A stretch of 38,689 nucleotides of DNA from a virus (lineage: Duplodnaviria; Caudoviricetes): positions 1 to 38,689 of the IMG/VR virus record IMGVR_UViG_3300010362_000051; one strand, written 5' to 3'. Positions 114-36,469 of the stretch are shown one piece after another. Position 1 is the first letter of the stretch. Every line of letters begins with the position of its first letter. The position numbers were made by a program, and so were the translations under genes. The notes under the pieces are model-generated. The model did no database searches. It saw nothing but the letters and a program-made list of their open reading frames with translations, and was not told the origin of the DNA.

Positions 114-256
114 TTTACAATAGACATAAACACTGTTTAAACTAAATCTTTAGTAGGTATGTTTTAGAAACAGACAGATCATATATGGTTTTATAAGACT
201 CAAAAGGGCGGTGAATTTTAATGATCTGTAAGCCCTTTGTTTACAACACTTTATAC

Positions 257-285
257 TTGACAAGACCATTTTAATGTGATACAAT
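257..285 (+). promoter_or_regulatory. Sigma70-type promoter for the replication arm
   Basis: TTGACA (257-262), 17-bp spacer, TACAAT (280-285) with extended TG. Confidence 0.8.
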
Positions 286-400
286 TATCGAGCGTTGAAA
301 GTATGGCCGTTTTTTCAGGTTTGAATCCCCATTTAAACACTGTTTACGGTCTGGGATTAACAAGGAGAAAGTTTTACTTAAATGTACCAAGTGAGATAAT

Positions 401-877
401 ATGGACACAAATCATTCCCTCTATAATGTGCCAGAGTACGTTCGGAAATATTGCAAAGGAAGGTTGACAGAAGTAGTTGAATACCTGACTGAAAAGCAAT
501 ACTCAATTTACCTTAGAAAATATCAACATGGAGAAATCAAAAGACTAGAAGTTTTAGGTAGTGAAAAAGATAGCCAATACATCAGATGCCTAGTTACACG
601 CCAAGTTCTGCCACTTACAGTAATGAAAAATCCAATGCTCAAACGAGCAGCGGAATTAGAATATAAGACCTACAATGGGGAATTCCCCATAAGCCTACAA
701 GAAGCCAGATGGATATTGGTTGATGAATATGGGGACAAGTATCCAGATCTCAACTCCATCAATCAGCCTACTTCCTGCCTTGTATTGATTCAACACAGAA
801 GAGGACAATTTAAACTCTGTTTAAATGACACTGTTCGGATTGCCAATGAGAGGAGATCCAGACTATGTATTGTGTAG
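401..877 (+). CDS. Hypothetical protein
   Basis: 158-aa ORF, first gene after the promoter, overlaps next ORF. Confidence 0.7.
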   Translation: MDTNHSLYNVPEYVRKYCKGRLTEVVEYLTEKQYSIYLRKYQHGEIKRLEVLGSEKDSQYIRCLVTRQVLPLTVMKNPMLKRAAELEYKTYNGEFPISLQEARWILVDEYGDKYPDLNSINQPTSCLVLIQHRRGQFKLCLNDTVRIANERRSRLCIV

Positions 878-1227
878 TATGTGTTCAAAACAGAGCTAGT
901 GATTTCTTTTGCCCATTCTGTCAAGGTAATATAGGAAAGCTACTTAGAAAAACTCAAATAGAAGTTACTAAAGATTGGAAAGATATTTATCAGAGTTTAA
1001 CAATGGAGCAACAGCATAAAATTGCCTCATTGATAAGCAAGAGGATTCTTAGTGGACTCAAAGCCGGTATCTATAATGAGTCTGATTTCAGAGTAGATAC
1101 TATGGTCAAAGAATATTGTGAGATGACTCTCAAAAGACATGAATATTTAGAAATTCCCATCTCAACTGATTATAGTGATATGAACGGTTGTAGATATACT
1201 CAATACACTTCACCTAGAGGAGATTGA
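865..1227 (+). CDS. Hypothetical protein with N-terminal Zn-finger-like CxxC...CxxC
   Basis: CVVC...CPFC; AGGAG RBS upstream. Confidence 0.7.
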   Translation: MYCVVCVQNRASDFFCPFCQGNIGKLLRKTQIEVTKDWKDIYQSLTMEQQHKIASLISKRILSGLKAGIYNESDFRVDTMVKEYCEMTLKRHEYLEIPISTDYSDMNGCRYTQYTSPRGD

Positions 1228-1228
1228 T

Positions 1229-1411
1229 ATGCCAGAAGATGTAAACAGTGTTTATGGAGATACATTAGAAATAAATGCTGATGTAAATAATTCTCAGAAA
1301 CAAATCGAAGCACTAAAAAGACAAATAAAGGCGCTTAAGCAGTGTTTAAAAGAAGTAGGAATTGAAATCAACGGAGATGAAGTAAACTTAGAAGGAGAGG
1401 TAAAGGGCTGA
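1229..1411 (+). CDS. Small coiled-coil hypothetical protein
   Basis: 60 aa, GAGGAG RBS, heptad-like QKQIEALKRQIKALKQCL. Confidence 0.6.
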   Translation: MPEDVNSVYGDTLEINADVNNSQKQIEALKRQIKALKQCLKEVGIEINGDEVNLEGEVKG

Positions 1412-1521
1412 GGTCATATATGTTTTGCGTTGATAGTATATATGGAACCCAAGTGTAACTATATACTACCACAACATTTACCTTATGTCAAATTTAAACA
1501 GTGTTTAAGAAAGAGAATAAA

Positions 1522-1608
1522 GTGAAAAAGAAAGATCCTAACTTTTGGTTATTGTGGGCATTTATCTTGGCTATATTAATTAGCATAATTGCCTTTATCT
1601 CAAAATAA
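1522..1608 (+). CDS. Small membrane peptide (not in ORF track)
   Basis: GTG start, MKKKDPNFWLLWAFILAILISIIAFISK; an in-frame alternative GTG at 1501 lies inside a palindrome copy. Confidence 0.45.
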   Translation: MKKKDPNFWLLWAFILAILISIIAFISK

Positions 1609-1622
1609 TTAAAGGAGATAAT

Positions 1623-1871
1623 ATGAACTGGGAAGAGATAGACAACATAGAAAGAGTAACACCGAGACATAATTGGAAAAGAAAGGAGAACCCACCTTCT
1701 GTTGATAAGATCATTGGAGACTTTGACAAGTTAGCCTGTGATGAAAATCCAACAGAAGAAGACTTTCATCAAAATACTCAGAAAACTAAGGTCGAAGGAA
1801 AATTGGTATACATTCAAAAGGCACTTGCTCAGACATTACGATGGCAATCCTTTTGTAAAACAACTACTTGA
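1623..1871 (+). CDS. Hypothetical protein
   Basis: AAGGAG RBS before ATG; overlaps the next ORF in another frame. Confidence 0.45.
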   Translation: MNWEEIDNIERVTPRHNWKRKENPPSVDKIIGDFDKLACDENPTEEDFHQNTQKTKVEGKLVYIQKALAQTLRWQSFCKTTT

Positions 1872-2178
1872 AGACTGGCATTCTCTCTGCAAACTGGCAA
1901 GTAAGGCAGTATCAGTTAAAAGGGGGATGTCTAAGAAAACGGTATGGGAGTTGATCGAAAGGTCAACTCCTCTACACCTTGAAGGTTATAGAGATAATGA
2001 ATTCCTAATTATTAGGGTACTTTATAACAAGGTAGACAAGAAGAAGTATGTGGACATTAGGATATATGAGATCAACAATGGTATTCCTAAGAAGACAGAC
2101 AAAGGAACTTACTTCCCACTCAAGCTATGGGAGAATCTTAAACAGTGTTTAAATGAAATAACAAGGAGAATAAAATGA
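1738..2178 (+). CDS. PC4/YdbC-like ssDNA-binding protein (start uncertain)
   Basis: C-terminal KKYVDIRIY...KKTDKGTYFPLKLWENLK resembles the PC4 signature (IDIREYW...PGRKGISL...W..LK). Confidence 0.7.
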   Translation: MMKIQQKKTFIKILRKLRSKENWYTFKRHLLRHYDGNPFVKQLLEDWHSLCKLASKAVSVKRGMSKKTVWELIERSTPLHLEGYRDNEFLIIRVLYNKVDKKKYVDIRIYEINNGIPKKTDKGTYFPLKLWENLKQCLNEITRRIK

Positions 2179-2179
2179 A

Positions 2180-3739
2180 ATGAATAAGAAAACGATTAGA
2201 TGTCCAGACCATAAGGATAAACATGCTAGTGCAGCTATCTTTACTAGGCCAGATGGCAGTGAGTGGTTACACTGTCTTGGATGTGGAGCTAACAGACTCT
2301 TCAAAGAAGGAGACAAGAACTTGAGAAATGAAGTTTACATAGAGGATGAAGTGTATGATGTGGGGGATTTTGGAGTAGATATTAAACACTGTTTAAATCC
2401 TCTTGAACTTCTAGAGGATCTTGCTAGAGATAAAGGTATTACATCTGAAATGCTTGATGCACTTGGAGGATTTGTAACTGATGAATATTATCTAGGCTTT
2501 AAGTATGGAAACGGGAGGGAGGTCTATCGAAACCTAGCTAAAGACAATAGACCAAGGTTTATAAATGTAGGTGGTAACAAAGGGTTGATGAATGATGAGA
2601 TCATAGATCACTATGATGAATGGTTTCTAGTAGAAGGATTAACTGATTGGGCAATGTTCAAATACTTCATCAGACCAAACGTAACTACATCTTTTGGAGC
2701 AGAGATATCAGATGAGCAGGCTTACCTGTTAAGAGGTAAGACAGTCTTTATGTTATTTGATAGAGACTTCGCAGGATATAGGGGATCTAAGCAAGCAGAA
2801 GCTAAGCTAATGGAATATGGAGCCACTCCTATTAACTTTGAGCTACCCAATGGATTCAATCTTAAACCTAGCGGCAAGGTGGATGTAGGTTATCTCATTC
2901 ATAAAGAGCTAGAAGAGTTTAGAAACTGGATAGATTTCAAGGTTAGAAGGTATAAGACCTTTGATGATACTTATGTGGACAGGTTCAAGAAGAGAGATCC
3001 TTTGCATTTCTATAAGACTGATATACCATTCATCAGGTTTACTCAAGGTCTGTATGTATTGACTGGCCCACCTGGAGTAGGTAAGACCACAGCAGGAATC
3101 AGCTTTACAGATAACTTCCAAGAACAAGGAGGATCAGTTCTCTATGTTAACTATGATCTACCAGAGGATCAGATAGTAGCTAGGCTAGCATCTAGATATA
3201 CAGATGCATTTAGTTGGGCAGAGATAGAAGCTATGCCCCATCTCCTTAATGATGAAAGAGAAGCAGAGGAGAAGCTTAAACAGTGTTTAAAGAGAGTCAA
3301 GGTAATGACTAAGCTTACTCCATCTGAACTTAAACACTGCAAGAAGTATTACACTCATATGGTTATTGATTATCTTCAGAGGGTTCCTAATAATCATCCT
3401 GATCAGAGAGTAGGTTTAGAACATTTGATGGATGATCTATCTGATATGGGAGTAACTGATGGCATGACTGTTGTAGGTATCAGCAGAGAGAGTCTTAATG
3501 GTAACAAATTTAGTGGCACTGCTGCCATAGAATACCATGCACAGGGAGCTATGATCCTAGATAAGACAGACAATGATATAGTATCCTGTGAGATCAGGAA
3601 GAATACTAGAGGTAAGACTGGACATACTCTGTACAAGGTAGACTATCCACATCAGAAGCTAGTACCTACCAAGTTGAGTGGTATAGCAGATGATAAGTTT
3701 AGAACATTATGGGGAGAGGAAGATGAAAAAGATAATTAA
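2180..3739 (+). CDS. Fused DNA primase / DnaB-like helicase
   Basis: Zn finger CPDH...CLGC, TOPRIM VEGLTD and FDRD, Walker A GPPGVGKT, Walker B VIDYLQ, KNTRG arginine finger. Confidence 0.92.
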   Translation: MNKKTIRCPDHKDKHASAAIFTRPDGSEWLHCLGCGANRLFKEGDKNLRNEVYIEDEVYDVGDFGVDIKHCLNPLELLEDLARDKGITSEMLDALGGFVTDEYYLGFKYGNGREVYRNLAKDNRPRFINVGGNKGLMNDEIIDHYDEWFLVEGLTDWAMFKYFIRPNVTTSFGAEISDEQAYLLRGKTVFMLFDRDFAGYRGSKQAEAKLMEYGATPINFELPNGFNLKPSGKVDVGYLIHKELEEFRNWIDFKVRRYKTFDDTYVDRFKKRDPLHFYKTDIPFIRFTQGLYVLTGPPGVGKTTAGISFTDNFQEQGGSVLYVNYDLPEDQIVARLASRYTDAFSWAEIEAMPHLLNDEREAEEKLKQCLKRVKVMTKLTPSELKHCKKYYTHMVIDYLQRVPNNHPDQRVGLEHLMDDLSDMGVTDGMTVVGISRESLNGNKFSGTAAIEYHAQGAMILDKTDNDIVSCEIRKNTRGKTGHTLYKVDYPHQKLVPTKLSGIADDKFRTLWGEEDEKDN

Positions 3740-3977: not shown

Positions 3978-5796
3978 AGATGTAGAAGGTGAAGCAGTAG
4001 GCTTCGATATAGAAACTAATGATAGCATAGATCCTTATGATCCTATGTCAGAAGTAGTATGTCTATCTATTAGTGGCTATACACAGGTTTTCTATCTTCA
4101 CAAGGCAAAGTTTAAACAGTGTTTAAATCTGATTAAGCAAGTAGTAGAGTCTCCAAATTGTATGGTCATAGGTCATAACATAATGTTTGATTTAAAGTTT
4201 ATGGCTGTCAAATATGGATGGACTATAAGGTGTCTGGCTTATGACATAATGCTAGCAGAGTATTTCTTGGATGAAGAAAGGAAGTTTACCAAGCTAAAAG
4301 ATCTGATCATCAAATATGGTATTGATACTGGAGATCATAAGAGTATATATGAAGGAAGGAAGATCTCTCAAATACCATATGAAGATTTAACGGTCTACAA
4401 TGGAAATGATGCCAGAGCTTGTGTAATACTCAAAAGGGATGTGTTTGATCCAGCTTTAGAGGAACAAGGATTAACTAAGATAATGGGTATAGCCTGTGAA
4501 GCAATACCTGTACTGACTAAGATGATGGTTAGAGGAATAAATGTAGATCTTATGTATGGACAGCAACAGCAAATGAAATTATATGATAAAATGATAAAGA
4601 TGAGACTTAAGTTGAAAGATCTAGCTCAATCTACATTCAATCCTGATAGTCCACAACAGTTATCTAAAGTTTTATATGGGAAGTTTAAGTTTGAAGCTTT
4701 TAAAATTGGTAAGGCTCATGGCAGTACAGATTATGAAAGCATAATTAGAATTAGGCAAGAACAATGTGATGGAGATGATATAGATGTCAAGTTCATTGAT
4801 ACTTTGATAGAGTACAATAAGCTTAAGACAATGAATAATAAGTACTATACTAAGCTTCCCTATTGGGTCAGACCAGATGGTTGTATCCATACAAATTTTA
4901 ACTTGGGAGCTACTGATACTGGTAGATTAACTAGCAGTGGTACTAGAGATGAAGATGGAAATACGCTTGGCCCTAATATGCAGCAGCAAAAGAGGGGGGC
5001 TGAGTTCAGAGGAGTATATGTTCCACGTCCAGGCTATACATTTTTAGAGGGAGACTGGTCAGCAGTAGAGATGAGATTCCTTGCTCATTTTGCAGGGGAA
5101 ACAGCGATGATTGAGATGTTTAAACAGTGTTTAGATGTGCATACAGCTACTATGTGTCAACTGAAAGGATGGAACTATGATGAAGCTCTGGAGATATATC
5201 TTAATGCAGATCATCCCGAACATTTATCAATCAAGAATCTTAGAGTTGGAGTTAAGAACTTCAACTTTGGAGAAGTCTATGGAGCAGGCATTGACAAATT
5301 ACAAAATGAACTCGTTAAGCATGGAATCTACTGGACAAGAAAGCAGTGTGAAGATATTTATTATGAAAAGAAGAAGCTCTTTCCTAATATCGTCAGATGG
5401 AAAAAGGAAGTTGCAAACTTTATCAAGAAGTATCAGTACGTTAGGATGCCTTTCGGTCAACTCCGAAGGCTACCTGACGACTCATGGGGCAGTATCCTCA
5501 AGGGTATTAACTTCATCATACAGTCTACCGCATCAGGATGGTTCCCCATAATAGGAATGATCCTACTAGACAGATACTTTGATGAGAACAAACTTGATGC
5601 TCACATCTTACTCAGCGTTCACGATTCTATCCTATGCGAAGTTAAGATCTATGGAGAGAGTAAGATGGAAAAGATAAAGAAAGACTTTGAAAGGATAATG
5701 ACTGAAGATATTTTAGAATATGTAAAAGCTATCTTTGACTTTCAATTAACTGTGCCTTTAGAATTTAAAACAGAATATATGGAAAGGTGGAGATAA
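3892..5796 (+). CDS. polA: Family A DNA polymerase with 3'-5' exonuclease
   Basis: Exo motifs FDIET, GHNIMFDL, YNGND; TDTGRLTSS; motif A DWSAVEMR; motif B RVGVKNFNFGEVYG; motif C VHDSI. Confidence 0.96.
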   Translation: MKQETLPLKFQAQLEIPENFHHLKELTFEDVEGEAVGFDIETNDSIDPYDPMSEVVCLSISGYTQVFYLHKAKFKQCLNLIKQVVESPNCMVIGHNIMFDLKFMAVKYGWTIRCLAYDIMLAEYFLDEERKFTKLKDLIIKYGIDTGDHKSIYEGRKISQIPYEDLTVYNGNDARACVILKRDVFDPALEEQGLTKIMGIACEAIPVLTKMMVRGINVDLMYGQQQQMKLYDKMIKMRLKLKDLAQSTFNPDSPQQLSKVLYGKFKFEAFKIGKAHGSTDYESIIRIRQEQCDGDDIDVKFIDTLIEYNKLKTMNNKYYTKLPYWVRPDGCIHTNFNLGATDTGRLTSSGTRDEDGNTLGPNMQQQKRGAEFRGVYVPRPGYTFLEGDWSAVEMRFLAHFAGETAMIEMFKQCLDVHTATMCQLKGWNYDEALEIYLNADHPEHLSIKNLRVGVKNFNFGEVYGAGIDKLQNELVKHGIYWTRKQCEDIYYEKKKLFPNIVRWKKEVANFIKKYQYVRMPFGQLRRLPDDSWGSILKGINFIIQSTASGWFPIIGMILLDRYFDENKLDAHILLSVHDSILCEVKIYGESKMEKIKKDFERIMTEDILEYVKAIFDFQLTVPLEFKTEYMERWR

Positions 5797-6134: not shown

Positions 6135-6405
6135 ATATTCTCAGAAGCATAGGTATTATCCTGAATGGATGCCTGATGACAAGGGATTCACAAGATACTA
6201 TTGGCATCTCAAAAGACGATGCTTATGGACACTAGGGCTTGTAACTATAAAGGGGAAAAGAAATGATAGACACTTGACATTTACTCCAGACAAGATAGCA
6301 ATGCTACATGAAATGATAGACAGATGTGATGAGCATTTGAATAAGGCGAAAAAAGAATTCTATGAAAGCATTAAGGATAATGCTTTTGAAGATGATGAAA
6401 CGTAA
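6064..6405 (+). CDS. Basic hypothetical protein
   Basis: 113-aa ORF; stop TAA is the first triplet of a palindrome copy. Confidence 0.65.
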   Translation: MDTKRARNKVKKGKQAGDRAGKPKYSQKHRYYPEWMPDDKGFTRYYWHLKRRCLWTLGLVTIKGKRNDRHLTFTPDKIAMLHEMIDRCDEHLNKAKKEFYESIKDNAFEDDET

Positions 6406-6449
6406 ACAGTGTTTAAGAACTTTAGTTCGATGAAATAGGAGAAAACAAA

Positions 6450-8213: not shown

Positions 8214-9114
8214 GTTGATTTATGATAAGCATAAGATAGGAGCTAATGTGAGATCTTCTGTACCTCCTTGCACTTTATGCAGAGAAGTTCCTGAGGGGGC
8301 TGTCAGGGGACACTTTCATGGGTCTGAGTTAGGTCAATGCAAACTCAAAACTTATTGGGATTGTACTTCTGGATCAACATTTGAAGATCCTCTAGAAGGT
8401 AGAGTTAGCGAAGATGATATAGACGCTAGAGCAGCTTTCCTACTTGATGGACATCTCCATGAAGAGAACATCATCAAGAACATAGCTGCTTCTGGAATGA
8501 ATATCATGGGATATGGTAATCAAGATGAGTATGAAAGAAAGATTCAAGTCTATGTCAGGTATACTAAAAATGGGGAAAAGAGTTCAATTGATTTTACTAT
8601 GCCCCATAATAAAGCTCCCAATAGGGATAAGGTATTAGAGGGATTTGAAGAATCATTCAAGATAATTGCTCATCTTGATGGAATACTTGAAGTCAAGAGT
8701 AAAAAGACTGGTAAAGAGATGTTAGCTGGAGTTGAGTGTAAGGCTGTTAAAGATTACACTTGGAAGAAAATAAAAGAAACATCTGAAATTTCTGATATTT
8801 GGTATGGACAAATCCATAGTTATTTCATATCAAACCATCACATACAGAGGTTCTATTTATTTATCAAGCATAGGCATACATCTCAGATGATGAAACCTAT
8901 ATTGATAATGAGGAATGATGATTATATCAAGAGGAGACTAACAGCTTTACATGATGTGTATAGTGCAATTCTAGATGATGATCCAGATAAATATGGAATA
9001 AAGGCAGAGCATACATCTCCCAAAGATAGTGAATGTAAATTCTGTCCCTACAAAGAAAGATGTTATGGAAAAGTGAAGGTAGATTTAAACACTGTTTACG
9101 AGGAGGAAGAATAA
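8176..9114 (+). CDS. Cas4-like PD-(D/E)XK exonuclease
   Basis: SELGQC, HLDGIL...VECK, YGQIHSY, C-terminal CKFCPYKERC (1+3 Cys Fe-S pattern); AAGGAGG RBS. Confidence 0.85.
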   Translation: MKIELNPIDPLSRLIYDKHKIGANVRSSVPPCTLCREVPEGAVRGHFHGSELGQCKLKTYWDCTSGSTFEDPLEGRVSEDDIDARAAFLLDGHLHEENIIKNIAASGMNIMGYGNQDEYERKIQVYVRYTKNGEKSSIDFTMPHNKAPNRDKVLEGFEESFKIIAHLDGILEVKSKKTGKEMLAGVECKAVKDYTWKKIKETSEISDIWYGQIHSYFISNHHIQRFYLFIKHRHTSQMMKPILIMRNDDYIKRRLTALHDVYSAILDDDPDKYGIKAEHTSPKDSECKFCPYKERCYGKVKVDLNTVYEEEE

Positions 9115-10034: not shown

Positions 10035-10239
10035 AAGACTAGAAAGAATATTGAAAATGTCAGAAGATTTTAGTGAAGATCAACTACTTGGAACATTAGA
10101 CGTTTCTTTAATGGATGGATCTAGGTATGAACTTGCTTTTGAGGTAATGATGTCGTTGTTGATGAACAAGATCAAACAAATTGATAAGCAAATAGAAATT
10201 CTTAAACAGTGTTTAAATGAATTAAAAGGAGAAATATAA
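10027..10239 (+). CDS. Hypothetical protein
   Basis: AAGGAG RBS; TAATG coupling to next gene. Confidence 0.65.
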   Translation: MNERLERILKMSEDFSEDQLLGTLDVSLMDGSRYELAFEVMMSLLMNKIKQIDKQIEILKQCLNELKGEI

Positions 10240-10628
10240 TGAAAGATCCTTGGACAGATTTTTTAACGTTTGATCATTTTCAAAAGGTCAATGAACGTAG
10301 ATGTGAAGAAGGCTTCCGTCATAGGGTAGCTAAGTGGTCTATAAATGATTGGGCTGCTGCTACTGGAGGAGAAATTGGAGAAGCTATTCAAGAACTTGGA
10401 AAGCTTCTTACATTCCTTGATACTGCTAAGAAGATCAAAAGACTTGAAGATGAACCCTTTGATGGGGAGAAACTAGAGAAATTTTTAGATCAGCTTGCAG
10501 AAGAAATCTCTGACATCATTACATATTGTGATTTGACCATGACTAGAATAGGTAGAAAGACAGCAGAAGAAATAGTCAAGAAATTCAATAAAGTATCTGA
10601 CAAAAGAGGATGTAGTATAAAGTTGTAA
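10239..10628 (+). CDS. MazG-like nucleotide pyrophosphohydrolase
   Basis: GEIGEA...LAEEISDIITY...IVKKFN, all-alpha NTP-PPase acidic motifs. Confidence 0.8.
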   Translation: MKDPWTDFLTFDHFQKVNERRCEEGFRHRVAKWSINDWAAATGGEIGEAIQELGKLLTFLDTAKKIKRLEDEPFDGEKLEKFLDQLAEEISDIITYCDLTMTRIGRKTAEEIVKKFNKVSDKRGCSIKL

Positions 10629-10642
10629 ACAGTGTTTAAATC

Positions 10643-10883: not shown

Positions 10884-13800
10884 CTATTTACTCTCCTGAT
10901 CTAGACGTTCTTTATCTGCCAATTGTTTTTGACCAAGTATACCAAGTCCTCTGACTTGATACTGATTTTTAAGTTTGTTACCGGCTTTAATTACTTCTAG
11001 AAAGTTTCTGTATTCTTCCAAGTATTTCTCATAATCTGTATTAGCTCCTCTGATCTTGGCATTCCTTAGCTCATCTACAATGTCTTTTAGGTGAGAGACA
11101 TTTGCTAGATCCTGCCACTGCTTTTGCTCCTTTAGATCCATCCCTCTAGGAACAACTCCAACTACAAACTGCATAGCTTTATCTAAACTAGACTGAGATG
11201 AGTCACCAATATTTAACCACTGTTTAAGAGCAGGAACAGCCTGCATAACAGAATAACCAAGATACGTATTAACATATGTGGCTGTCTTACCTGTACTCAG
11301 ATTAACTCTGTCCTCCCACCCTATAGCATCTTTCACAAATTTAGGTAGGAAACTATAATCTCCAATCCTTTGACCTTCTGATACAGTTCTACCTGTAAAG
11401 AAGTTCTTATCTATAGCAGTCTCTAAAGGAACTTTGATAAATGGAGTTAAAGCAGCTAGTAGACTCTTCTCTACTGTCCTCTTAGGATCAAAATCTCCAG
11501 TCTTATTGTCATAGACCATAAGAGATATAGCATCTAGAGGAGTCATATTATTTAGGATATTGAATTTTGCTTTGCCTTCTTTATCAAATCCAGTATAGAT
11601 AAAGGGCTGCTCTATCAAATAACTGTCCCCAAGTATAGCTCTCTCAGAAGGAGAAAGATTGTCACCCTCTCCAGTCAATAGTCTCTCCATCAATCCAGTT
11701 AGTTTATTAGCTGCTGCTACAGTTCCAGGCTCGTTCATTGCTTTCTTCAAAGCAAACGGAATAGCAAATCTTGGAAAAGTATAGAAGGGTATTACTTCTC
11801 TTACTCTACGTTCAAAGTGAGTAAGACCTCTCTTGTAGTCAAATAGGATCTCATTGACTTTATTAGCTGCCTGCTTGGGAGAATAACCTTGAGTAACAAA
11901 ATTGATATATGAAACCATTCTCCCATAATCTTCTACTATGGCAGGATGCTTCCAATATTGAATTAACTCTTTAGTAACAGACCATCTATTATTTGGATCA
12001 TATTGTAATTGCTCCTCTATCTTTTTCTTGAATGTAGATCCTGTAGCGTCAGTCCCCCTGATAACATTATTCTCCCTAGCTGTTCTGATAAGATCTTCCC
12101 CGGTATAAGTCTGACCAAAGGCAGTTACTCTTTTGAACTCTGACGCTACATCAAGTAATCTCTCCTCTCCTAAAATATTCTCTAGAGCTACCCTACTAGC
12201 TAGGACTGCATCAGATCCCTCTCCACCAAAGTTCTTACTGATCATATTTGAAATGTACTTTGGTAGAGTTGGGGTCTTCTTACCCCTATAGAAATCCATC
12301 AGCAATAGACTAGCATCTGCCAAGGCTCTAGGATCAAATGTCTTTCCACCTTTAAGGCCAAGTTCTAACATAATCTGTATTGTATTTGATATTCCCTGCT
12401 TGAATCCAAATGAAGGTTTAGCTACTGTAGCTCCTTTTCTGAACATACCAGTTAAGGTACTCATAAACTTCAAAGCTGCCCTAGTTGAAGTATTCATGCC
12501 AGTAGGATATACAGATTCTCCAAGCAGCTTAATATCATCAAGATACTTCTTACCATTGGGAAGTGATGTTAGCTTGACTAAATCATTTTGACTTCTAATC
12601 AGCAAATCCTTTCCAGTAGTAGACTTATACAAATCTCCAAAGGCTTCTTCCAGATCTTCAAAGAACTGCTTCTTAACTAAAGCTCTACGAGAAGATGTTA
12701 CTCTAGTAGCGTATATCAAAGCCGCATCTAATTCCGGTATGTGTCCAGCCAATTCGGCTTCTTGCATAGTAACATACTTACGTTTTTGTGAAGATGACAG
12801 CTCAGTAGATAAGCCATATTTCTGCTTAGTTATAGCTACCATATCATTAGCATCATCAAGACTATCATAATAACGTGGGAAGTAATTCTTGATTTCTGTT
12901 TTCAGTAGATTGGAATCCATTTCCAAGGCTGCTATATTTGCAAACTCTTGTTTCAATCCTGCTATAACAGACATCTCTTCAGCACTTAAATTGGTGTTAG
13001 AGATAGCATCTTGGAAGATTTTATCTGCTTCAGATTGTAAGACTGTCCTGTCTTCTACAAACTCAATTCTCCTTGTATTATCGTCAATCTCCCTCATCAC
13101 CTTAGTTATTCTATCTCTTCTATCTTGAGTCATTCTCTCAAACAACCTTCTGGATTCTCTGATAACTTGACCTTCAATATAATCATAGTGGTTTTCAAAT
13201 TCTGTTATAACTCCCTTGAATGGTTCTTCTTTTGGTCTAACAAATAATCCAGCCAATCCCTCTTTAAATCCCTTAGCAGCTACTCCAGTTACTTCAAACA
13301 TCCTAGCTATGGGGGATGCAATTGGAATATTCTTTACAACTACTGTGTGGTTGAAAGCTTTGATAAAGTCTAATGACTTCTTCAATGGGCCTAGTCCTGT
13401 AAGTGTAGCTATCTCTTTTGAGATCTTTGTAAATGGAACTTCAAGTTTAAGTTTTAAGCTTGGTTCTTTAAACAGTGTTGATGCAACTTTAGAATCAAGA
13501 TTAGCAAGAGATTGCATAACCTGTTCAGCTTTATACTGTATCTCATCAACAGAAAGCTTACGTACAAATACTCTAGTGAAATCAGTAGGCATCTCACTAA
13601 GGCCAAGTTCAGTTTGTGCAAGTTCTGTAGCGGGGGTTTTTCCAAACTTACCTCCTACTCCTCTCTTCTGAATATTAGCTATGCCAAGATCTGCCATCTG
13701 ATCGGCATAGAACTTCTTCAGTATATCAATTTCTTTTTTGACTCTGCCTGGGGTAGCTTCTTGAACTACTCCTTTAACTTCTTTTCTAGCTAATTCAGCA

Positions 13801-14672: not shown

Positions 14673-14698
14673 ATTGATCTCCTTAAACAGTGTTTAAA

Positions 14699-16303: not shown

Positions 16304-16361
16304 AATTCCTCCTCTTAAACACTATTCGTTTCACTCATCTAGTTTACTTCGTAAACACTGT

Positions 16362-17538: not shown

Positions 17539-17562
17539 AATTCTCCCCTATTTAAACAGTGT

Positions 17563-21654: not shown

Positions 21655-21668
21655 AATTTAAACACTGT

Positions 21669-22004
21669 TTAAGCTGTTGCGAATCCTAACATTCTTATTC
21701 TGACATCTTCAGTAGAAGGATTGAAAAATCCTAAATTAGTTCCTATGCCTACAGCAGCATTAGGAACTTGGGACTCATAATATTCTCTCATGTCTCCTGT
21801 TTCTATCACATCTCCAAATATAGTAGTAGATACTTGGTCTGGGGCTGTAGCTTTTCCTACATTCACTGCTCCAGGATTTGGCCCAATCTTATCTATATAC
21901 ACCAGAATCTTCTCATAAGTATTGCTCCCAATAAGACTGGATGCAGTTATTACCCCAGAAGTAGAATTTATAATCTGATTTTTACCAAATACTCCAGCAG
22001 CCAT
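21669..22004 (-). CDS. Hypothetical virion protein
   Basis: 111 aa, AGGAG RBS, structural operon. Confidence 0.6.
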   Translation of the reverse strand: MAAGVFGKNQIINSTSGVITASSLIGSNTYEKILVYIDKIGPNPGAVNVGKATAPDQVSTTIFGDVIETGDMREYYESQVPNAAVGIGTNLGFFNPSTEDVRIRMLGFATA

Positions 22005-26980: not shown

Positions 26981-27007
26981 ATCTTTTTCTCCTTGTTTAA
27001 ACACTGT

Positions 27008-27208
27008 TTAAATTTTATCTATCAAAATTACTAATGTTACATATACAAAAAGAATGAGTATTATCTCAAACGTTTGTACATATTTATTTAAATGCAGGAT
27101 CTTCAAAAACATCAGAGGGGCATTCAGATTCAAGTCTGGCCCTTTCTCTAGCTTTTTTGTTTCTTTCTCTAACAGTTCCATAATCGCCATATTCATCCTT
27201 CCAGGCAT
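27008..27208 (-). CDS. Possible small membrane peptide (start uncertain)
   Basis: Hydrophobic C-terminus; stop supplied by palindrome; largely overlaps upstream gene. Confidence 0.3.
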   Translation of the reverse strand: MPGRMNMAIMELLEKETKKLEKGPDLNLNAPLMFLKILHLNKYVQTFEIILILFVYVTLVILIDKI

Positions 27209-27668: not shown

Positions 27669-27715
27669 CCCCTTACTTGCGCATTACTCGCAAGCTCCTT
27701 TAAACACTGTTTAAA

Positions 27716-28510: not shown

Positions 28511-28523
28511 ATTTAAACACTGT

Positions 28524-30404
28524 TTACGCTGCTCCTGCTACTTGCAGTCCAGCGTTGTTTCCTGATGCTATGCTTCTAACAAGATCTTGGCCAGACGTAG
28601 CTCCTGATGCCTGCTGTATTTGCTGTTGGCCTGGAGGCAAGGCTAGCTGTTGACCAAATTCCTGAGAAGTCATAGATCCTTCTTGTAATGGTTGAACTGG
28701 ATTTAGGGCAGTTGGGAAGAATCTTCCAAGATCAACTCTCTCAAATCCTTCAAATCCAAACTTAAGCAGTTCAACAAAATTGATTGCATTTGCTGGAATT
28801 AAACCAGCTTGTACCAAAGGAACTACAGATGACATAATGTATTGAACAAATTGAATCTGCTGCTGAGCTACCACTTCTGGATTACGCTTAGGAGCAGATA
28901 CAGTATCCATCCTAACATCAACTTCGTCCTTTAAGTCTTCCTCATTTACATTTACCCAAAATTCGCCTTGTGCCCCTCTGAGCTTAACTATTCTAGATTT
29001 AGTATATTGGGCACTAATATGTGCTGAAAGATGCTTACCCACTCTCAAGAACATCTTATCAATGGCAGCAATTCTTTCATTCAATTTCAGGCTCAGAATA
29101 TTTGTTCTAACTTGAACTTCCCCAAGCGTGGCACGACTTTGCAGATTCTCTCCTCTAGCTAGGGAATCTGCTCCTGTTGTTTCTGCTATGATTTGTTTCA
29201 TCATTTGCAAAAACAAGATGTAATCATGGGGAAGTTCTACATCCTGAATGGGAGTAATTGCATTTGACCTTTTAACAAACACAAAGTCCACATCAGGATC
29301 TCCAACTTTCTCTGCTTCATCTGCATCAATATCATCTTCTACAACTTGGAGTTGTCGTTTTGAATATCTCCTTCTATGATCTACTCCTGAAGTTATATGT
29401 CTGTTAAGTTCAAATCCCATATCTTCTGTAAATTCAGGAACTCCCATTCCATAGAACTCATTTGGCCTATAAATGAAGTCCATCTTAGTATATGGGAACT
29501 TGCTATCAAGATACGGATATGGATGCTCTATTACTTGCAAAGGTTCAGGAACTCCATCCATAAGGTACAATACTTGTTTATACTTATTGTCCCAAACTTC
29601 GTACATTCTACAAGTCTCTGATTCATAGTTCCAATAGCTTGAATCCTGAAGCCAAGCTAGATCTGAGTTATTAGCGTAAACACTGTTTAAGCCTTGAACC
29701 ATATTTGGCTTATAGATTCCATCAGCTATCTTCTCACGTACAGAAGCTTTATAGAATGTGTTCTCAACTACATCAGGAAGGTATTTATGATACTCCTCAA
29801 AACAAAACCTAGCCGTATCCAGATTCTTGCTAGGAGCAGAATAATCAAACCAAAACTTGCGAGGGTCAACTCTTTTGGCATAAATACTTTCTTTCTGTAT
29901 CATCTCATCATATTCAATATTTCCTGTTCCTTTATTGGCTGCTTGATCTACTACTCTTGTGAAACCATCTTTTGCTATACCATGGCCTATAATAATCCCA
30001 TCATAGGAAGACATAGTTAATTGATCTTGAATTTCCATTCTATGAAACTCATCATTCAAGACCTTCTGCTTAAGCATAACATTAACTACATCTTGAATTC
30101 TTTTAGGATCTAGAAAGTATGATGCTCTCTCATTGATAAGAAAAGGCATAATAGTCAAGATGGTAGAAGTGATAATAGGAAAGTTAATCCTATCAGATGG
30201 ATTGTCAGCAGATTTGTCATAATCATACTCTTCTGCATCTTCCCACATAAGCATGCTGTAGAGCCTATAGTATCTCTCCCACCTTCTTTCACCAAAGATA
30301 TATTCTTGCCTAAACCTTTGACAGGCACGAATACGTGTCCACCACATTGCCCAAGCAAGATCTCCAGTTCTTCTTTCTTTCTCTGTATAGCCTACTAATG
30401 ACAT
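28524..30404 (-). CDS. Portal protein
   Basis: 626 aa; GIIIGHGIAK, RVDPRKFWFD, FYGMGVPE, ETTGA....RG, ATLGEV, Gln-rich tail; lies between terminase and capsid. Confidence 0.9.
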   Translation of the reverse strand: MSLVGYTEKERRTGDLAWAMWWTRIRACQRFRQEYIFGERRWERYYRLYSMLMWEDAEEYDYDKSADNPSDRINFPIITSTILTIMPFLINERASYFLDPKRIQDVVNVMLKQKVLNDEFHRMEIQDQLTMSSYDGIIIGHGIAKDGFTRVVDQAANKGTGNIEYDEMIQKESIYAKRVDPRKFWFDYSAPSKNLDTARFCFEEYHKYLPDVVENTFYKASVREKIADGIYKPNMVQGLNSVYANNSDLAWLQDSSYWNYESETCRMYEVWDNKYKQVLYLMDGVPEPLQVIEHPYPYLDSKFPYTKMDFIYRPNEFYGMGVPEFTEDMGFELNRHITSGVDHRRRYSKRQLQVVEDDIDADEAEKVGDPDVDFVFVKRSNAITPIQDVELPHDYILFLQMMKQIIAETTGADSLARGENLQSRATLGEVQVRTNILSLKLNERIAAIDKMFLRVGKHLSAHISAQYTKSRIVKLRGAQGEFWVNVNEEDLKDEVDVRMDTVSAPKRNPEVVAQQQIQFVQYIMSSVVPLVQAGLIPANAINFVELLKFGFEGFERVDLGRFFPTALNPVQPLQEGSMTSQEFGQQLALPPGQQQIQQASGATSGQDLVRSIASGNNAGLQVAGAA

Positions 30405-30418
30405 GATTTAAACACTGT

Positions 30419-30679
30419 TTAAATTTCTTTGCCTATCAAATTAAAGTTTTGATCAAATGTCATTGCTGGAATTATAGATTGATAACCATCTTCATAAACC
30501 ACATAATAATTTCCAACAACTCCACTTGGACTATGCTTTAACAAAAATTCCATATCTATTTGGATTTTATCATATTCCTTATCAGTTGGAACCAAATAGA
30601 TAACATCACCATGATGCTCAACTCTATCAATAATAATCGCTCTGACAGGCTTGTGACATTCATATGCTGGTAAATTCAT
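30419..30679 (-). CDS. Conserved phage hypothetical protein
   Basis: YECHKPVRA...YYVVYEDGYQS..PA..F pattern common in phage genomes. Confidence 0.7.
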   Translation of the reverse strand: MNLPAYECHKPVRAIIIDRVEHHGDVIYLVPTDKEYDKIQIDMEFLLKHSPSGVVGNYYVVYEDGYQSIIPAMTFDQNFNLIGKEI

Positions 30680-33062: not shown

Positions 33063-33249
33063 CTGAATTTAAACACTGTTTAAAAATTTCATTATCAATG
33101 AATAACGTTTCAACTTTAACTCTATTATGTCTAGTTACAGCAAGTTCATAATAGTTCTTAACTTGTTTCTCATTTATCATTTCAGATAAGACAGGCTTAA
33201 ACTTCTTTAGTGTCATATTAGCTATCTTCTCAAATTCTGAATCTGACAT
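33028..33249 (-). CDS. Hypothetical protein
   Basis: 73 aa overlapping terL start. Confidence 0.5.
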   Translation of the reverse strand: MSDSEFEKIANMTLKKFKPVLSEMINEKQVKNYYELAVTRHNRVKVETLFIDNEIFKQCLNSDDEERTTTLEG

Positions 33250-33266: not shown

Positions 33267-33405
33267 TTTAAACAGTGTTTAAGCTTTTCCCAAGTTAACG
33301 TTCAGAGTGCTATCTATGCCAGCAACTTGTGATCCCGTATCGTTCTAACACCGTCTGATAAAGGATTTGGTACGCTTGTACCTTAAAGCTTAAACACTGT
33401 TTAAA
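33267..33405. repeat. 21-bp perfect inverted repeat flanking 97 bp
   Basis: TTTAAACAGTGTTTAAGCTTT (33267-33287) and AAAGCTTAAACACTGTTTAAA (33385-33405). Confidence 0.85.
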
Positions 33406-33532: not shown

Positions 33533-33580
33533 TAAAAGAAGTGGGAGAGGATTTAAACACTGTTTAAATTTCCCTCTCCC
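33533..33580 (-). terminator. Intrinsic terminator-like hairpin capped by the palindrome
   Basis: GGGAGAGG...TTTAAACAGTGTTTAAA.CCTCTCCC followed by ACTTCTTTT on the minus strand. Confidence 0.65.
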
Positions 33581-33632: not shown

Positions 33633-33980
33633 CTAACTATTAGAAGGACGTACAACATAGTTCTGAGTGAATGGAAGATCTACAATCTTTTCTATCATAT
33701 GCTCAGAACAATTCTGATTAGAACACCAAACCACTTGCTTACCACGTCTTGGAACTTCAGAAACCATGAAATTTCCACAAGAGCATTGCCAACCATTAGA
33801 GGTAAAATAAATGGGAGTATTGTTATTTTTTGGAAGTTTCATTTCCTCCGCCAATTGATCCCCAGTTACAGGGGATTCACTATAATCAAATTCTTTTCTT
33901 GCTATTCCCATTGGTATATCCTCAATCCTTCCTACTCTCTTCTGATACAAATAAATTGGAACCTGTTGAAATTTAAACAC
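33633..33980 (-). CDS. Hypothetical protein with Zn ribbon
   Basis: GTG start inside palindrome, AAGGAGG 9 nt upstream; CSCG...CSNQNC. Confidence 0.7.
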   Translation of the reverse strand: MFKFQQVPIYLYQKRVGRIEDIPMGIARKEFDYSESPVTGDQLAEEMKLPKNNNTPIYFTSNGWQCSCGNFMVSEVPRRGKQVVWCSNQNCSEHMIEKIVDLPFTQNYVVRPSNS

Positions 33981-34007
33981 TGTTTAAATCCTCCTTACGT
34001 TCCTTTC

Positions 34008-34297: not shown

Positions 34298-34302
34298 AAA
34301 AT

Positions 34303-34422
34303 TTAAACACTGTTTAAATTCCAATAGCTTGTTAAAAATTCTACTGCCTTTGACCAATCCCAATCACGTTGATCATAATAGTCAATGAGCCTCTTGATAA
34401 ATTCTCTACGAGCCTTACTCAT
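34303..34422 (-). CDS. Small protein (not in ORF track)
   Basis: MSKARREFIKRLIDYYDQRDWDWSKAVEFLTSYWNLNSV; AAGGAG RBS; ends within palindrome. Confidence 0.6.
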   Translation of the reverse strand: MSKARREFIKRLIDYYDQRDWDWSKAVEFLTSYWNLNSV

Positions 34423-34898
34423 TTATTCTCCTTGCCCAGATAATAATTCTTGTCTCTACGTGATAATTCTTCTTTTGGTTGAATACTGTCTTCTATGGGG
34501 CGTGAGGCGCAGTCTCTACAAATCTGTACTCCTCCAAGATATGTCCCTAGTTTCTTATCACATATAGCACATTGGTCTACGTCATCTTCGTTTAGTATGA
34601 CAAGAGCTATGCCATTCATATCAAGCATCTCTCCTGATGCAGTTTCATGAAAAACGTGATAGTAACTTACAGCTAATAGACGTTGTTTGATTTCCTCAAA
34701 AGCTTCCTTGCTTATGGGAAGTGTGGCAAGTGAATGTGTTTGACGCATATTATTTTCCTTTCTGAACTTAAAACATTTATCATTCCAATCTTCTGTAGTT
34801 ATTGTTCCATGTCCCAATCCATTGAGATTACAAGGGCCATTATTTGGATGGTCTTTCCTATAGTCTCCACAATAACATATATCTCTTGGATGTCCCAT
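34419..34898 (-). CDS. Cys-rich hypothetical protein
   Basis: CYCGD...H..C, CAIC...CRDC. Confidence 0.65.
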   Translation of the reverse strand: MGHPRDICYCGDYRKDHPNNGPCNLNGLGHGTITTEDWNDKCFKFRKENNMRQTHSLATLPISKEAFEEIKQRLLAVSYYHVFHETASGEMLDMNGIALVILNEDDVDQCAICDKKLGTYLGGVQICRDCASRPIEDSIQPKEELSRRDKNYYLGKENK

Positions 34899-34912
34899 AA
34901 TTTAAACAGTGT

Positions 34913-35302
34913 TTAAATTTCTTGTAGTCGTTTACCTGTTGATACTTCTAATATGGAGGAGAGCCTGTAATCTAATCTGACAATAGATTCTCCATCGTCC
35001 AGGTCATAACGTCTGTACATTATGTGTGGTTCTAGTCTCCACATATCTACAAATCCTATGGGAACATCTTCTCTGAAGAATAGCCCAGTTCCTTTGTATG
35101 ATGTAAATTCAGGAATTACTTTAATTAACTCTCTAGTTTCTTTTATTCTGTTTTTTATTTCTTCAGTGTTATGTTCATCTTCATATGGGATGTATATACC
35201 TTTCTTGTACCAATCCCATTCTGCTGGATTCATAGCTATTACATCAGGTCTATAGATTCCCTGAATGAAATTGTTGTAGGCATTTGCTAATTGTTTGAAC
35301 AT
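34913..35302 (-). CDS. Hypothetical protein
   Basis: 129 aa, AGGAG RBS; stop supplied by palindrome. Confidence 0.65.
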   Translation of the reverse strand: MFKQLANAYNNFIQGIYRPDVIAMNPAEWDWYKKGIYIPYEDEHNTEEIKNRIKETRELIKVIPEFTSYKGTGLFFREDVPIGFVDMWRLEPHIMYRRYDLDDGESIVRLDYRLSSILEVSTGKRLQEI

Positions 35303-35481
35303 ATAACTCCTGCAACATAGACTAGGATATACATTCCAAACAGGAAGATAAAGTAGTCCAGGCGTTTGATGATCCTGTCTAGTTGATCTATTTTCTCATG
35401 TTGAATATCTCTTTCTTCTTGACTCATATGGGAGATATTCCAATTTCTTTCCTCTGCATCCCCTAATTGTTTATATTCCAT
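35287..35481 (-). CDS. Small membrane protein
   Basis: GGAGG RBS; C-terminal TM helix. Confidence 0.6.
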   Translation of the reverse strand: MEYKQLGDAEERNWNISHMSQEERDIQHEKIDQLDRIIKRLDYFIFLFGMYILVYVAGVICSNN

Positions 35482-35501
35482 GATCCCTCCAAATTTAAAC
35501 A

Positions 35502-35759
35502 CTATTCCATCGAGTTTACTTCGTAAACACTGTTTAAATTTAAATCCTCTATCATTTGTCTGAAATGACTTTCACTCCAGATAATAGTGACAGGTACATT
35601 CCTGAATCCCTCTGGGGCAGGTTCTTTACTAACTCCAGTCATTGCTATTAGTTTCTCTGTTCTATGGGGAGGTACATTACTAGAAAATATAATCCTAGCT
35701 TGTTCATTTTCATAGATTATCATTCCATCTTTAATTGTTTTTTTAAATTTATTTGACAT
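35502..35759 (-). CDS. Hypothetical protein
   Basis: 85 aa; AAGGAG RBS. Confidence 0.65.
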   Translation of the reverse strand: MSNKFKKTIKDGMIIYENEQARIIFSSNVPPHRTEKLIAMTGVSKEPAPEGFRNVPVTIIWSESHFRQMIEDLNLNSVYEVNSME

Positions 35760-35774
35760 ATTATTTCTCCTTAG

Positions 35775-35888
35775 CTATGGGAGGTTATTGTCCATTTTGT
35801 TTAGTAATTCTACTAATAGGTAAATTAAGATTAGCGCAGTTATAAAGAATATACCTATTATGATTTTGTTAGTTGTTTTATCTTTCAT
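35775..35888 (-). CDS. Small membrane peptide (not in ORF track)
   Basis: MKDKTTNKIIIGIFFITALILIYLLVELLNKMDNNLP; overlaps upstream stop. Confidence 0.55.
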   Translation of the reverse strand: MKDKTTNKIIIGIFFITALILIYLLVELLNKMDNNLP

Positions 35889-36417
35889 CTTCATCATCCT
35901 CAAAGATTGAATCAATATCAATCTCTCCTAAATGGGAGGGTACAGTTTGTTTAGTATCGGTAATTTCAAAGATATTACCAGAGGTCTTCTTCACTTCGTA
36001 AACAGTGTTTAAATTATCTTTAGTATGGGGAGTTACATCTTTTTCTTTTACTTCTGCGCTGTTATTTTTAAGTAATACTTCTAGAGATACTTTCATTCCT
36101 TCTGAACTATTATCTTTCCCATTACCAATTGCTTTAATTAACCTATCATATGAATCATAGAATTTAACTTCAGTATCTAGATCTCTAATTAAATGGGGGA
36201 TAGCTTTACTATGATATGCTAATCTCATTATAGACATACTGCTTGCGCAGATGTAATTATAGAATTCATCATTGTTAAGTATTTCTACTATTAGGGATTC
36301 TTCTACATCTAGTATATTACTTATTTCTCCTGGAGTAGATATTTCAGAAGTAGATATAACTTTAAGTATATCTTTCTCTAACTCACTTAACTCTTTCTTA
36401 ACTAAAGCATTACCCAT
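35878..36417 (-). CDS. HTH-like protein, candidate terminase small subunit
   Basis: ELEKDILKVI...TPGEISNILDVEESLIVEIL HTH-like pattern; first gene of the packaging arm. Confidence 0.4.
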   Translation of the reverse strand: MGNALVKKELSELEKDILKVISTSEISTPGEISNILDVEESLIVEILNNDEFYNYICASSMSIMRLAYHSKAIPHLIRDLDTEVKFYDSYDRLIKAIGNGKDNSSEGMKVSLEVLLKNNSAEVKEKDVTPHTKDNLNTVYEVKKTSGNIFEITDTKQTVPSHLGEIDIDSIFEDDEDER

Positions 36418-36469
36418 ATAATCTCCATATTTAAACACTGTTTATATTTTTTTTTATTTCTATTTCATC

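What the first reader, a model, noticed from the sequence alone, without database searches (positions are those of the whole stretch)
127..36444. Genome-wide iterated palindrome TAAACA[C/G]TGTTTA (about 41 copies, about 1 per kb): candidate undescribed phage cis-element system
Seen: 41 exact 13-mers in both arms, in intergenic and coding DNA, often extended to the 17-mer TTTAAACASTGTTTAAA. A rough hand estimate at about 35% GC gives well under 0.1 copy expected by chance. Known analogues: mycobacteriophage L5/Bxb1 stoperators (13 bp, at gene junctions, but asymmetric and tied to a temperate repressor), cyanobacterial HIP1, DNA uptake sequences, and matS/parS/SlmA sites. I do not recognise this sequence as any of them, and no repressor or integrase is visible. 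Inference: the dyad symmetry implies a dimeric DNA-binding protein (phage or host) that coats the whole genome for silencing, compaction, localisation, packaging or self-marking against defence. Alternatives are a recombination/conversion hotspot or an RNA signal.
Basis: partly seen in the sequence, partly recalled or inferred. Interest (0 to 1): 0.95.

Follow-up and report, generated by a model that had tools for sequence, protein, structure and literature searches.

The report
Phage-specific palindrome lattices for orphan ParB
A soil phage carries one 13-letter DNA palindrome about every kilobase and its relatives carry their own versions, often at matching places; these are likely docking sites for a phage-made ParB-type DNA clamp (found in the relatives, predicted to lie in the unassembled part of this genome) that would coat the whole viral chromosome.

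Summary
Confirmed: 41 exact TAAACA[C/G]TGTTTA, none in 100 shuffles; 15 begin at a stop codon, 14 lie in genes. The window is an 87%-complete soil phage. Of 15 family records (window included), 13 carry an equally dense odd palindrome of a lineage-private sequence (six 13-mers); two have only a degenerate core. Sites sit at orthologous positions inside PolA, terminase and primase, rewriting residues, and intragenic sites fill gaps, so coverage is selected. All 9 relatives that span the early region encode an orphan ParB/Noc/KorB-like protein (no ParA, no tyrosine integrase); its slot falls in the window's missing part. Two relatives sharing the virion genes lack both ParB and lattice. KorB's operator has the same 6-1-6 form. 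Against: no ParB-motif covariation (7 genomes), binding untested, host unknown. The published precedent, Cluster O mycobacteriophages (34 palindromes, function unknown), encodes a ParB with an HTH, which gives a cultured test. The scan noted similar pairings in eight other findings on other DNA. New variant of a known kind; ParB as reader about 0.6.

The parts
127..36444 (.). Lattice of 41 exact palindromes TAAACA[C/G]TGTTTA, median gap 853 bp
127..139 (.). site, intergenic
334..346 (.). site, intergenic, about +48 from a strong sigma70-like promoter
1242..1254 (.). site, coding
1495..1507 (.). site, intergenic
2139..2151 (.). site, coding (3' end of PC4-like gene)
2383..2395 (.). site inside primase-helicase; G002 and G008 have their own motifs at the same alignment columns
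3277..3289 (.). site inside primase-helicase; same column as a G015 site
4113..4125 (.). site inside PolA; G002, G004, G005, G009 have their own motifs within 5 columns
5121..5133 (.). site inside PolA
6403..6415 (.). site beginning with a stop TAA
7728..7740 (.). site, intergenic
9086..9098 (.). site, coding (3' end of Cas4-like exonuclease)
10203..10215 (.). site, coding
10626..10638 (.). site beginning with a stop TAA, where the two arms converge
14684..14696 (.). site, intergenic
16352..16364 (.). site beginning with a stop TAA (- strand)
17553..17565 (.). site beginning with a stop TAA
18932..18944 (.). site beginning with a stop TAA
19914..19926 (.). site beginning with a stop TAA; G002 and G004 have their own motifs at this junction
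21659..21671 (.). site beginning with a stop TAA
22721..22733 (.). site beginning with a stop TAA
23591..23603 (.). site beginning with a stop TAA
24268..24280 (.). site beginning with a stop TAA
25764..25776 (.). site at the scaffold/major capsid junction; G002, G004, G005, G006, G009 each have their own motif there
26998..27010 (.). site, intergenic
27701..27713 (.). site, intergenic
28514..28526 (.). site beginning with the portal stop TAA
29677..29689 (.). site inside portal gene
30409..30421 (.). site beginning with a stop TAA
31115..31127 (.). site beginning with the terminase stop TAA
32193..32205 (.). site inside terminase, in an unconserved insertion; G001 and G003 have their own motifs within 3 columns
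33070..33082 (.). site, coding
33269..33281 (.). site, intergenic
33391..33403 (.). site, intergenic
33554..33566 (.). site, intergenic
33974..33986 (.). site, intergenic
34304..34316 (.). site, coding
34903..34915 (.). site beginning with a stop TAA
35524..35536 (.). site, coding
35999..36011 (.). site inside the TerS-like HTH gene
36432..36444 (.). site just upstream of the first late gene
811..823 (.). one-mismatch site
1336..1348 (.). one-mismatch site
11214..11226 (.). one-mismatch site inside the 1262-aa gene, filling the 4-kb gap
13469..13481 (.). one-mismatch site inside the 1262-aa gene; G006, G007, G008 have their own motifs within 4 columns
36570..36582 (.). one-mismatch site (centre T) upstream of the late promoter
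37181..37193 (.). one-mismatch site, about +17 from a strong promoter
37745..37757 (.). one-mismatch site
24..118 (+). Synteny anchor: aligns to G002 28888-28795, about 1.2 kb downstream of G002's parB; places the predicted parB about 1.2-2.3 kb before base 1, outside the record
35878..36438 (-). TerS-like HTH gene, rival reader; also present in lattice-less relatives G020 and G022
401..877 (+). Conserved unknown early gene, rival reader; not found in G004, which has 67 exact sites

Best explanation
The palindromes form an evenly spaced, lineage-private lattice that is likely the set of loading sites for the phage family's own orphan ParB (CTPase domain plus HTH, no ParA), whose gene is predicted to lie in the unassembled part of this genome. 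By analogy with ParB and KorB, a dimer would bind each site, close on CTP and slide about a kilobase, so that sites no more than about 2.5 kb apart would give a continuous protein coat; the lysine-rich C-terminal tails would help condense it. The likely purpose is to organise and shield the phage's own replicating DNA and tell it from host DNA and co-infecting relatives, which would explain why reader and lattice keep changing sequence together. Shown: lattice, even spacing, positional orthology, private sequences, ParB homology and co-occurrence. Inferred: binding, CTP clamping, coating and purpose. ParB as reader, whatever its purpose: about 0.6.
For: 13 of 15 family records have about 1-2 sites/kb; six 13-mers, each exact only in its own lineage. 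Gap CV 0.49-0.72 (0.32 in G003) vs about 0.97 random in 12 of the 13 (G001 was distorted by overlapping hits there, CV 0.60). With junction sites fixed, intragenic sites fill gaps at p<0.05 in 11 of 12 records, window p=0.003, largest gap 1.3-2.6 kb. Sites from different phages cluster at the same alignment columns in PolA (p<0.001), TerL (p=0.0007) and primase (p=0.007). ParB in 9 of 9 relatives that span the early region; the profile hits solved ParB/Noc/KorB at E 4e-17 to 1e-7; the model's best folds are ParB/Noc/KorB. G77, R80 and N128 are invariant; G77/R80 are needed for CTP binding in B. subtilis (PMC8494293). 12 of 12 other >=90% complete records without a lattice lack it; G020 and G022 share the virion genes but lack ParB and lattice. 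Five of six HTH_3 hits in 10 records fall in the parB genes. KorB's operator TTTAGC[G/C]GCTAAA is also 6-1-6 (PMC13768133) and KorB acts up to 1.5 kb away (PMC11790492). Only 2 of 51 strong promoter-like sites have the nearest site within -36 to -7. G004 and G009 share a motif and group in the PolA tree (quick tree, SH-aLRT 100) but not in the capsid tree. Corndog gp90 has ParB_N plus an HTH region (E 9e-9 to Spo0J).
Against: The window itself has no parB, and laying the source run on G002's parB found no matching contig. No covariation: Mantel rho 0.10-0.26, p 0.19-0.32, for ParB whole, core DBD and CTPase parts (-0.19 for the distal helices) over 7 genomes, while SSB (0.49, p=0.035), a zinc-finger gene (0.51, p=0.023) and the capsid gene (0.49, p=0.05) score higher, none surviving 16 tests. 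Recognition helices differ between phages sharing a motif (G004 vs G009; G005, G008, G015). G010 and G018 have ParB but only a 2.2-fold excess of TAA-N5-TTA. Co-occurrence is with the whole replication module (PolA, primase, SSB, Cas4, PC4), not with ParB alone. For 10 of the 12 outgroup records the lack of a lattice was judged on 11-22 kb loci only. No clustering by column in portal (p=0.58). The catalytic E78 is replaced in 9 of 9 and E111 kept in 5 of 9, so CTP turnover is uncertain. The host could not be searched.
Confidence: 0.45

Rival explanations
1. Same reader, different purpose: ParB acts as a KorB- or stoperator-like silencer that holds the phage in a dormant or carrier state or times late genes, with the changing motif acting as an immunity type.
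For: 15 of 41 sites start at a stop codon and many lie 4-20 bp before the next start; 13 of 51 strong promoter-like sites have the nearest site at +15 to +60 (no null computed); KorB silences at a distance (PMC11790492); stoperators sit in short intergenic gaps (PMC9283540); an outer-membrane barrel gene is of a kind often expressed from dormant phages (own knowledge).
Against: No tyrosine integrase, ParA over cut-off or RHH co-repressor in 10 records; sites are symmetric and fill gaps inside genes; junction placement is also the cheapest place for a site.
Confidence: 0.18
2. A host-encoded dimer (nucleoid protein or a regulator with a 7-1-7 box such as the Fur or CodY families, recalled) binds the sites; the motif follows the host rather than a phage gene.
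For: No residue-level ParB covariation; the same 13-mer recurs in phages with very different ParB helices; the window also carries a second palindrome resembling a host FadR/GntR box (resemblance recalled).
Against: Near-exact conservation (41 exact vs 7 one-off) and six private sequences fit a dedicated reader; G020 and G022 have no lattice. Hosts are unknown, so untested.
Confidence: 0.15
3. Another phage protein reads the sites: the TerS-like HTH (packaging marks), a zinc-finger gene, or the unknown early gene at 401-877.
For: Extra sites cluster beside the TerS-like gene in G005 and G006; the zinc-finger and capsid genes correlate weakly with motif distance.
Against: TerS-like, zinc-finger and zinc-ribbon genes are also in lattice-less G020 and G022; the 401-877 family was not found in G004 and gave no fold lead; the G004/G009 motif follows the PolA tree.
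Confidence: 0.13
4. Recombination or gene-exchange boundaries.
For: 27 of 41 sites lie at junctions or between genes; two indels between repeats were described in Cluster O (PMC4351075 section 8).
Against: Sites are kept deep inside essential genes at the cost of residues; no tyrosine recombinase; private motifs would hinder exchange between lineages.
Confidence: 0.05
5. RNA hairpin signal or technical artefact.
For: Centre base is G on the transcribed strand in 29 of 41.
Against: 4 of 4 sites folded give z-scores -0.41 to 0.39; no Rfam match; a second assembly agrees; relatives from other records carry analogous motifs at orthologous places.
Confidence: 0.03

Closest known systems
KorB and its OB operators on IncP-1 plasmid RK2 (PMC13768133, PMC11790492, passages)
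   Same: ParB-family CTPase-HTH protein; 13-bp odd palindrome, 6-1-6 with G/C centre; dispersed sites mostly away from promoters; action at kb distance.
   Different: KorB has a ParA partner (IncC) and clamp-locking co-repressors; here no ParA or RHH partner was found, density is about 1 per kb, a third of sites are inside genes, the host is a phage, and the motif changes between lineages.
Cluster O mycobacteriophage 17-bp repeats (Corndog; PMC4351075, sections 8 and 13)
   Same: Non-integrating phage, more than 30 dyad-symmetric near-invariant sites, about a third in genes, mostly not at promoters, function unknown; the genome encodes a ParB-like protein (gp90) that has an HTH region.
   Different: Unrelated phage and sequence (7-3-7); one motif in one cluster; the authors did not tie gp90 to the repeats.
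Noc and its NBS sites; chromosomal ParB-parS (PMC7383237, PMC12704722, passages)
   Same: Orphan ParB paralogue with changed specificity binding many dispersed palindromes; homologous domains.
   Different: Chromosomal, even palindromes, role in division or segregation; the four ParB/Noc specificity positions vary freely here.
Cluster A mycobacteriophage stoperators (PMC9283540, passages)
   Same: More than 20 13-mers across the genome, in short intergenic gaps.
   Different: Asymmetric, oriented with transcription, bound by a monomeric repressor of a temperate phage.

Membership tests
ParB/Noc/KorB protein family (candidate reader, in relatives) | N-terminal ParB-CTPase fold | tested here: met
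   PDB profile hits E 4e-17; Pfam ParB_N over cut-off in G015; fold search
ParB/Noc/KorB protein family (candidate reader, in relatives) | Central HTH DNA-binding domain | tested here: met
   HTH_ParB over cut-off in G010, G015, G018; DBD profile hits ParB, Noc, KorB
ParB/Noc/KorB protein family (candidate reader, in relatives) | CTP-binding and catalytic residues (GxxRxxA, EN) | tested here: inconclusive
   G, R, N invariant; E78 replaced in 9 of 9 (as in KorB), E111 kept in 5 of 9
ParB/Noc/KorB protein family (candidate reader, in relatives) | C-terminal dimerisation | not tested
   A helical C-terminal region is predicted; no complex prediction was obtained
ParB/Noc/KorB protein family (candidate reader, in relatives) | Specific binding to the palindrome and CTP-dependent sliding | not testable with these tools
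   Needs biochemistry; computational covariation was negative
ParB/Noc/KorB protein family (candidate reader, in relatives) | Gene present in this genome | tested here: inconclusive
   Absent from the 87%-complete record; syntenic slot lies outside it
ParABS partition system | Cognate ParA ATPase and ParA-binding motif | tested here: not met
   0 of 10 records over the AAA_31 cut-off, weak hits are in the helicase; motif absent in 9 of 9 ParBs
ParABS partition system | Few clustered centromere sites | tested here: not met
   About 1-2 sites per kb, evenly spread
KorB-OB regulon | Odd 13-bp palindrome with G/C centre | tested here: met
   other lineages have an A/T centre
KorB-OB regulon | Clamp-locking co-repressor (KorA/TrbA) at promoters | tested here: inconclusive
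   No shared HTH_3 or RHH gene other than ParB; KorA itself was not used as a query
Cluster A stoperators | Asymmetric site oriented with transcription | tested here: not met
   Perfect dyad
Cluster A stoperators | Temperate phage with immunity repressor and integrase | tested here: not met
   No tyrosine integrase in 10 of 10 records; serine integrase not searched by family in relatives, none in the window's PHROG/Pfam scans
Cluster O 17-bp repeats | Sequence TGTTCGG-N3-CCGAACA in a Cluster O phage | tested here: not met
   Different sequence and phage; works-like resemblance only

The most novel reading that the evidence does not exclude
Non-integrating phages use an orphan ParB clamp and a genome-tiling palindrome lattice as a self-identity code: protein and 40-70 sites switch sequence together across the whole genome, overwriting codons, so that each lineage coats, condenses or shields only its own DNA; the unexplained Cluster O repeats are the cultured example.
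Probability: 0.3. Interest if true: 0.9.

Novelty: new variant of a known kind. Interest (0 to 1): 0.74.

Why it matters
It would give partner-less phage ParB proteins, which are common and unexplained (PMC12704722, passages), a target and a role outside segregation, and offer a reader for the Cluster O repeats left open in 2015, testable in a laboratory host. The family is also a natural series of whole-genome specificity switches: six private motifs, kept at orthologous positions even inside essential genes. I found no paper tying an orphan phage ParB to such a lattice (open-licence library only; supplements not read).

Tried and rejected
Exact 17-mer scan of viral contigs: 94 stretches, the 80 listed each one site on a different contig, i.e. 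background. Single-protein capsid scan found no relative. The window's 13-mer has no exact match in 16 other records. ParB scan with the close alignment returned only G002; the PolA scan gave four family records already held and otherwise distant hits. No close cultured phage: capsid at most 32%, terminase about 25% identity. Laying run X1 on G002's parB region at 80% gave no parB contig (a hole proves nothing). No RNA holder listed. No tRNA or Rfam match. Mantel covariation negative. The TerS tree did not finish and the PolA tree is the quick one; G003 and G010 were left out of the capsid tree because my ORF calls were truncated. Motif refinement did not converge on a sharp site in G010 and G018. 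A dimer prediction for the ParB C-terminal domain was not obtained. The phiC31 conserved inverted repeats are recalled only; one search returned nothing on them. The scan's notes held nothing by place or sequence for this phage family.

Full report
Observation. The 13-mer TAAACA[C/G]TGTTTA occurs 41 times between 127 and 36444 and never in 100 dinucleotide shuffles; with proteins kept and synonymous codons shuffled the mean is 0.17, maximum 2, in 300 runs. There are only 7 one-mismatch and 3 two-mismatch copies, so the site is sharply defined. The full 17-mer is exact in 10 of 41. By my gene sites begin with a gene's TAA stop, 14 are coding and 12 intergenic. A Logan contig from the run that may be the source agrees but for one letter over the half I laid.

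The genome. G000 is a linear virus record, 87% complete, held by one soil run. It encodes primase-helicase, PolA, a Cas4-like exonuclease, terminase, portal, capsid and adaptor; I read it as podovirus-like, since those scans gave no sheath and only a weak coiled-coil hit to a tape measure. Its right end cuts an open frame. An outer-membrane barrel gene points to a diderm host; 3 of 10 structural rows name Acidobacteriota, a weak hint.

Relatives have their own lattices. Capsid and terminase profiles brought related records; I took 14 family records whole, plus outgroups. Exact counts: TTAACC.GGTTAA 14 and 20 in G001 and G002; TCAAAC.GTTTGA 11 in G003; TAAAGT.ACTTTA 67 and 13 in G004 and G009; TTAAAT.ATTTAA 38, 10, 16, 39 and 8 in G005, G008, G015, G016 and G017; TCAAAT.ATTTGA 49 and 34 in G006 and G007. 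Cross-matches are at most 1. With weight matrices 13 of 15 family records have about 1-2 sites per kb. G010 and G018 show only TAA-N5-TTA at 100 and 105 against about 46 expected. Among 75 further capsid loci (L153-L227), 5 had a six-base-arm palindrome four or more times: four family members and one distant phage with a different, even palindrome.

Coverage is what is selected. Gap CVs are 0.49-0.72 (0.32 in G003) against about 0.97; for the 41 exact sites alone 0.73, p=0.019. Holding junction sites fixed, the intragenic sites fill gaps better than random in 11 of 12 records (G002 p=0.054), and the largest gap is 1.3-2.6 kb. Sites of different phages fall at the same alignment columns in PolA, terminase, primase and weakly the 1262-aa gene (p=0.046), not in portal (p=0.58), each with its own sequence and therefore its own residues. 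The scaffold/capsid junction holds six phages' own motifs. The whole lattice has therefore been rewritten several times in place.

The candidate reader. All 9 relatives that span the early region encode a 332-398-aa ParB-like protein. Its profile matches solved ParB, Noc and KorB across the CTPase and HTH domains, and a predicted model finds the same folds. No ParA, ParA-binding motif, tyrosine integrase or RHH protein was found; five of six HTH_3 hits are the parB genes. The window has no parB, but its first 118 bases align to G002 about 1.2 kb downstream of parB, so the slot is in the missing part. Of 26 further records, ParB matched G018, an archaeal bin on another contig, and one weak stopped fragment; 12 of 12 other near-complete records lacked it. 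G020 and G022 share the virion module including the TerS-like and zinc-finger genes, carry other replication genes, and lack both ParB and lattice. KorB's operator is TTTAGC[G/C]GCTAAA (PMC13768133, passages), the same 6-1-6 form, and KorB slides to targets up to 1.5 kb away (PMC11790492, passages), the scale of the gaps here. Only 2 of 51 strong promoter-like sites have the nearest site over the -35/-10 region; 13 have it at +15 to +60, without a null.

What speaks against it. Motif distance does not track ParB distance over 7 genomes (rho -0.19 to 0.26), while SSB, a zinc-finger gene and the capsid gene show nominal correlations that do not survive 16 tests. Phages sharing a motif have unlike recognition helices. 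These ParBs are about 20% identical with long branches, and KorB takes its specificity from residues outside the HTH (PMC3597684, passages), so the test is weak, but it gives no support. ParB co-occurs with the whole replication module. G010 and G018 have ParB without a sharp lattice. The catalytic glutamates (PMC8494293, passages) are poorly kept. The host is unknown, so a host reader is untested.

Mechanism. I commit to load-and-slide coating by the phage's own ParB: binding, CTP closure, kilobase spreading, and condensation aided by lysine-rich tails (tails seen; role inferred). Without ParA, active partition is unlikely; a private code that changes between lineages fits organising and shielding self DNA. 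Silencing by the same protein is the main alternative, then a host reader or another phage protein.

Comparison and novelty. Cluster O mycobacteriophages carry 34 dyad-symmetric sites of unknown function, a third in genes, with no integrase; the authors named gp90 among possible binders but thought it unlikely to act in genome stability (PMC4351075, sections 8 and 13 read). Corndog gp90 has ParB_N and aligns to Spo0J through the HTH, and 34 of 36 matching records are at least 95% identical over its first 199 residues. So the phenomenon has a precedent and the protein family is known; the lineage-private, gap-filling, positionally conserved lattice and its link to an orphan ParB I did not find in print (listings and abstracts' starts; no supplements read, and they may bear on this). 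Stoperators differ in being asymmetric and oriented (PMC9283540, passages). PMC7383237 and PMC12704722 were seen as passages. The scan's notes list eight findings of similar ParB-palindrome pairings on other DNA; I had reached this reading before (note) and did not test theirs. Verdict: real, new variant of a known kind, interest 0.74.

Noticed in passing
window 63-75, 101-113, 36705-36717: A second palindrome, TTGGTC[A/T]GACCAA, three times near the early and late control regions and twice at the matching place in G002; it resembles FadR/GntR-family operators (recalled), perhaps a host regulator site.
   Followed up: partly
window 27716-28270 (-): Outer-membrane beta-barrel gene next to the portal, shared by 8 of 17 records; possible superinfection-exclusion protein and a sign of a diderm host.
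   Followed up: partly
G010 positions 2381, 7141, 10019, 15031, 17427, 26000, 30765: Seven copies of a different 20-bp spaced palindrome ATTTC[C/T]-N8-[A/G]GAAAT in a relative that lacks the sharp lattice; could be an alternative ParB site.
   Followed up: partly
L394:10425-11933 (-), Corndog gp90: The Cluster O ParB-like protein has an HTH region after its CTPase domain; 23 of the 17-bp repeats lie in the 25.8 kb fetched.
   Followed up: partly
P0121-P0132: Close ParB relatives (62-91% identical to G002's) fall into three recognition-helix variants, a ready set for a covariation test once their contigs can be read.
   Followed up: no
G020 whole record; L191; L266: Lattice-less relatives carry a few copies (3-4) of other, even palindromes.
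   Followed up: no
window 26404-26481: Glu-rich repeat in the scaffold-like gene, skipped by the read tool.
   Followed up: no
window 37898-38689 (+): Open frame of about 264 codons cut by the record's end; no exact lattice site after 36444.
   Followed up: no
window 1738-2178 (+): PC4-like gene present in all 10 family records that span the region and weakly in G022.
   Followed up: partly
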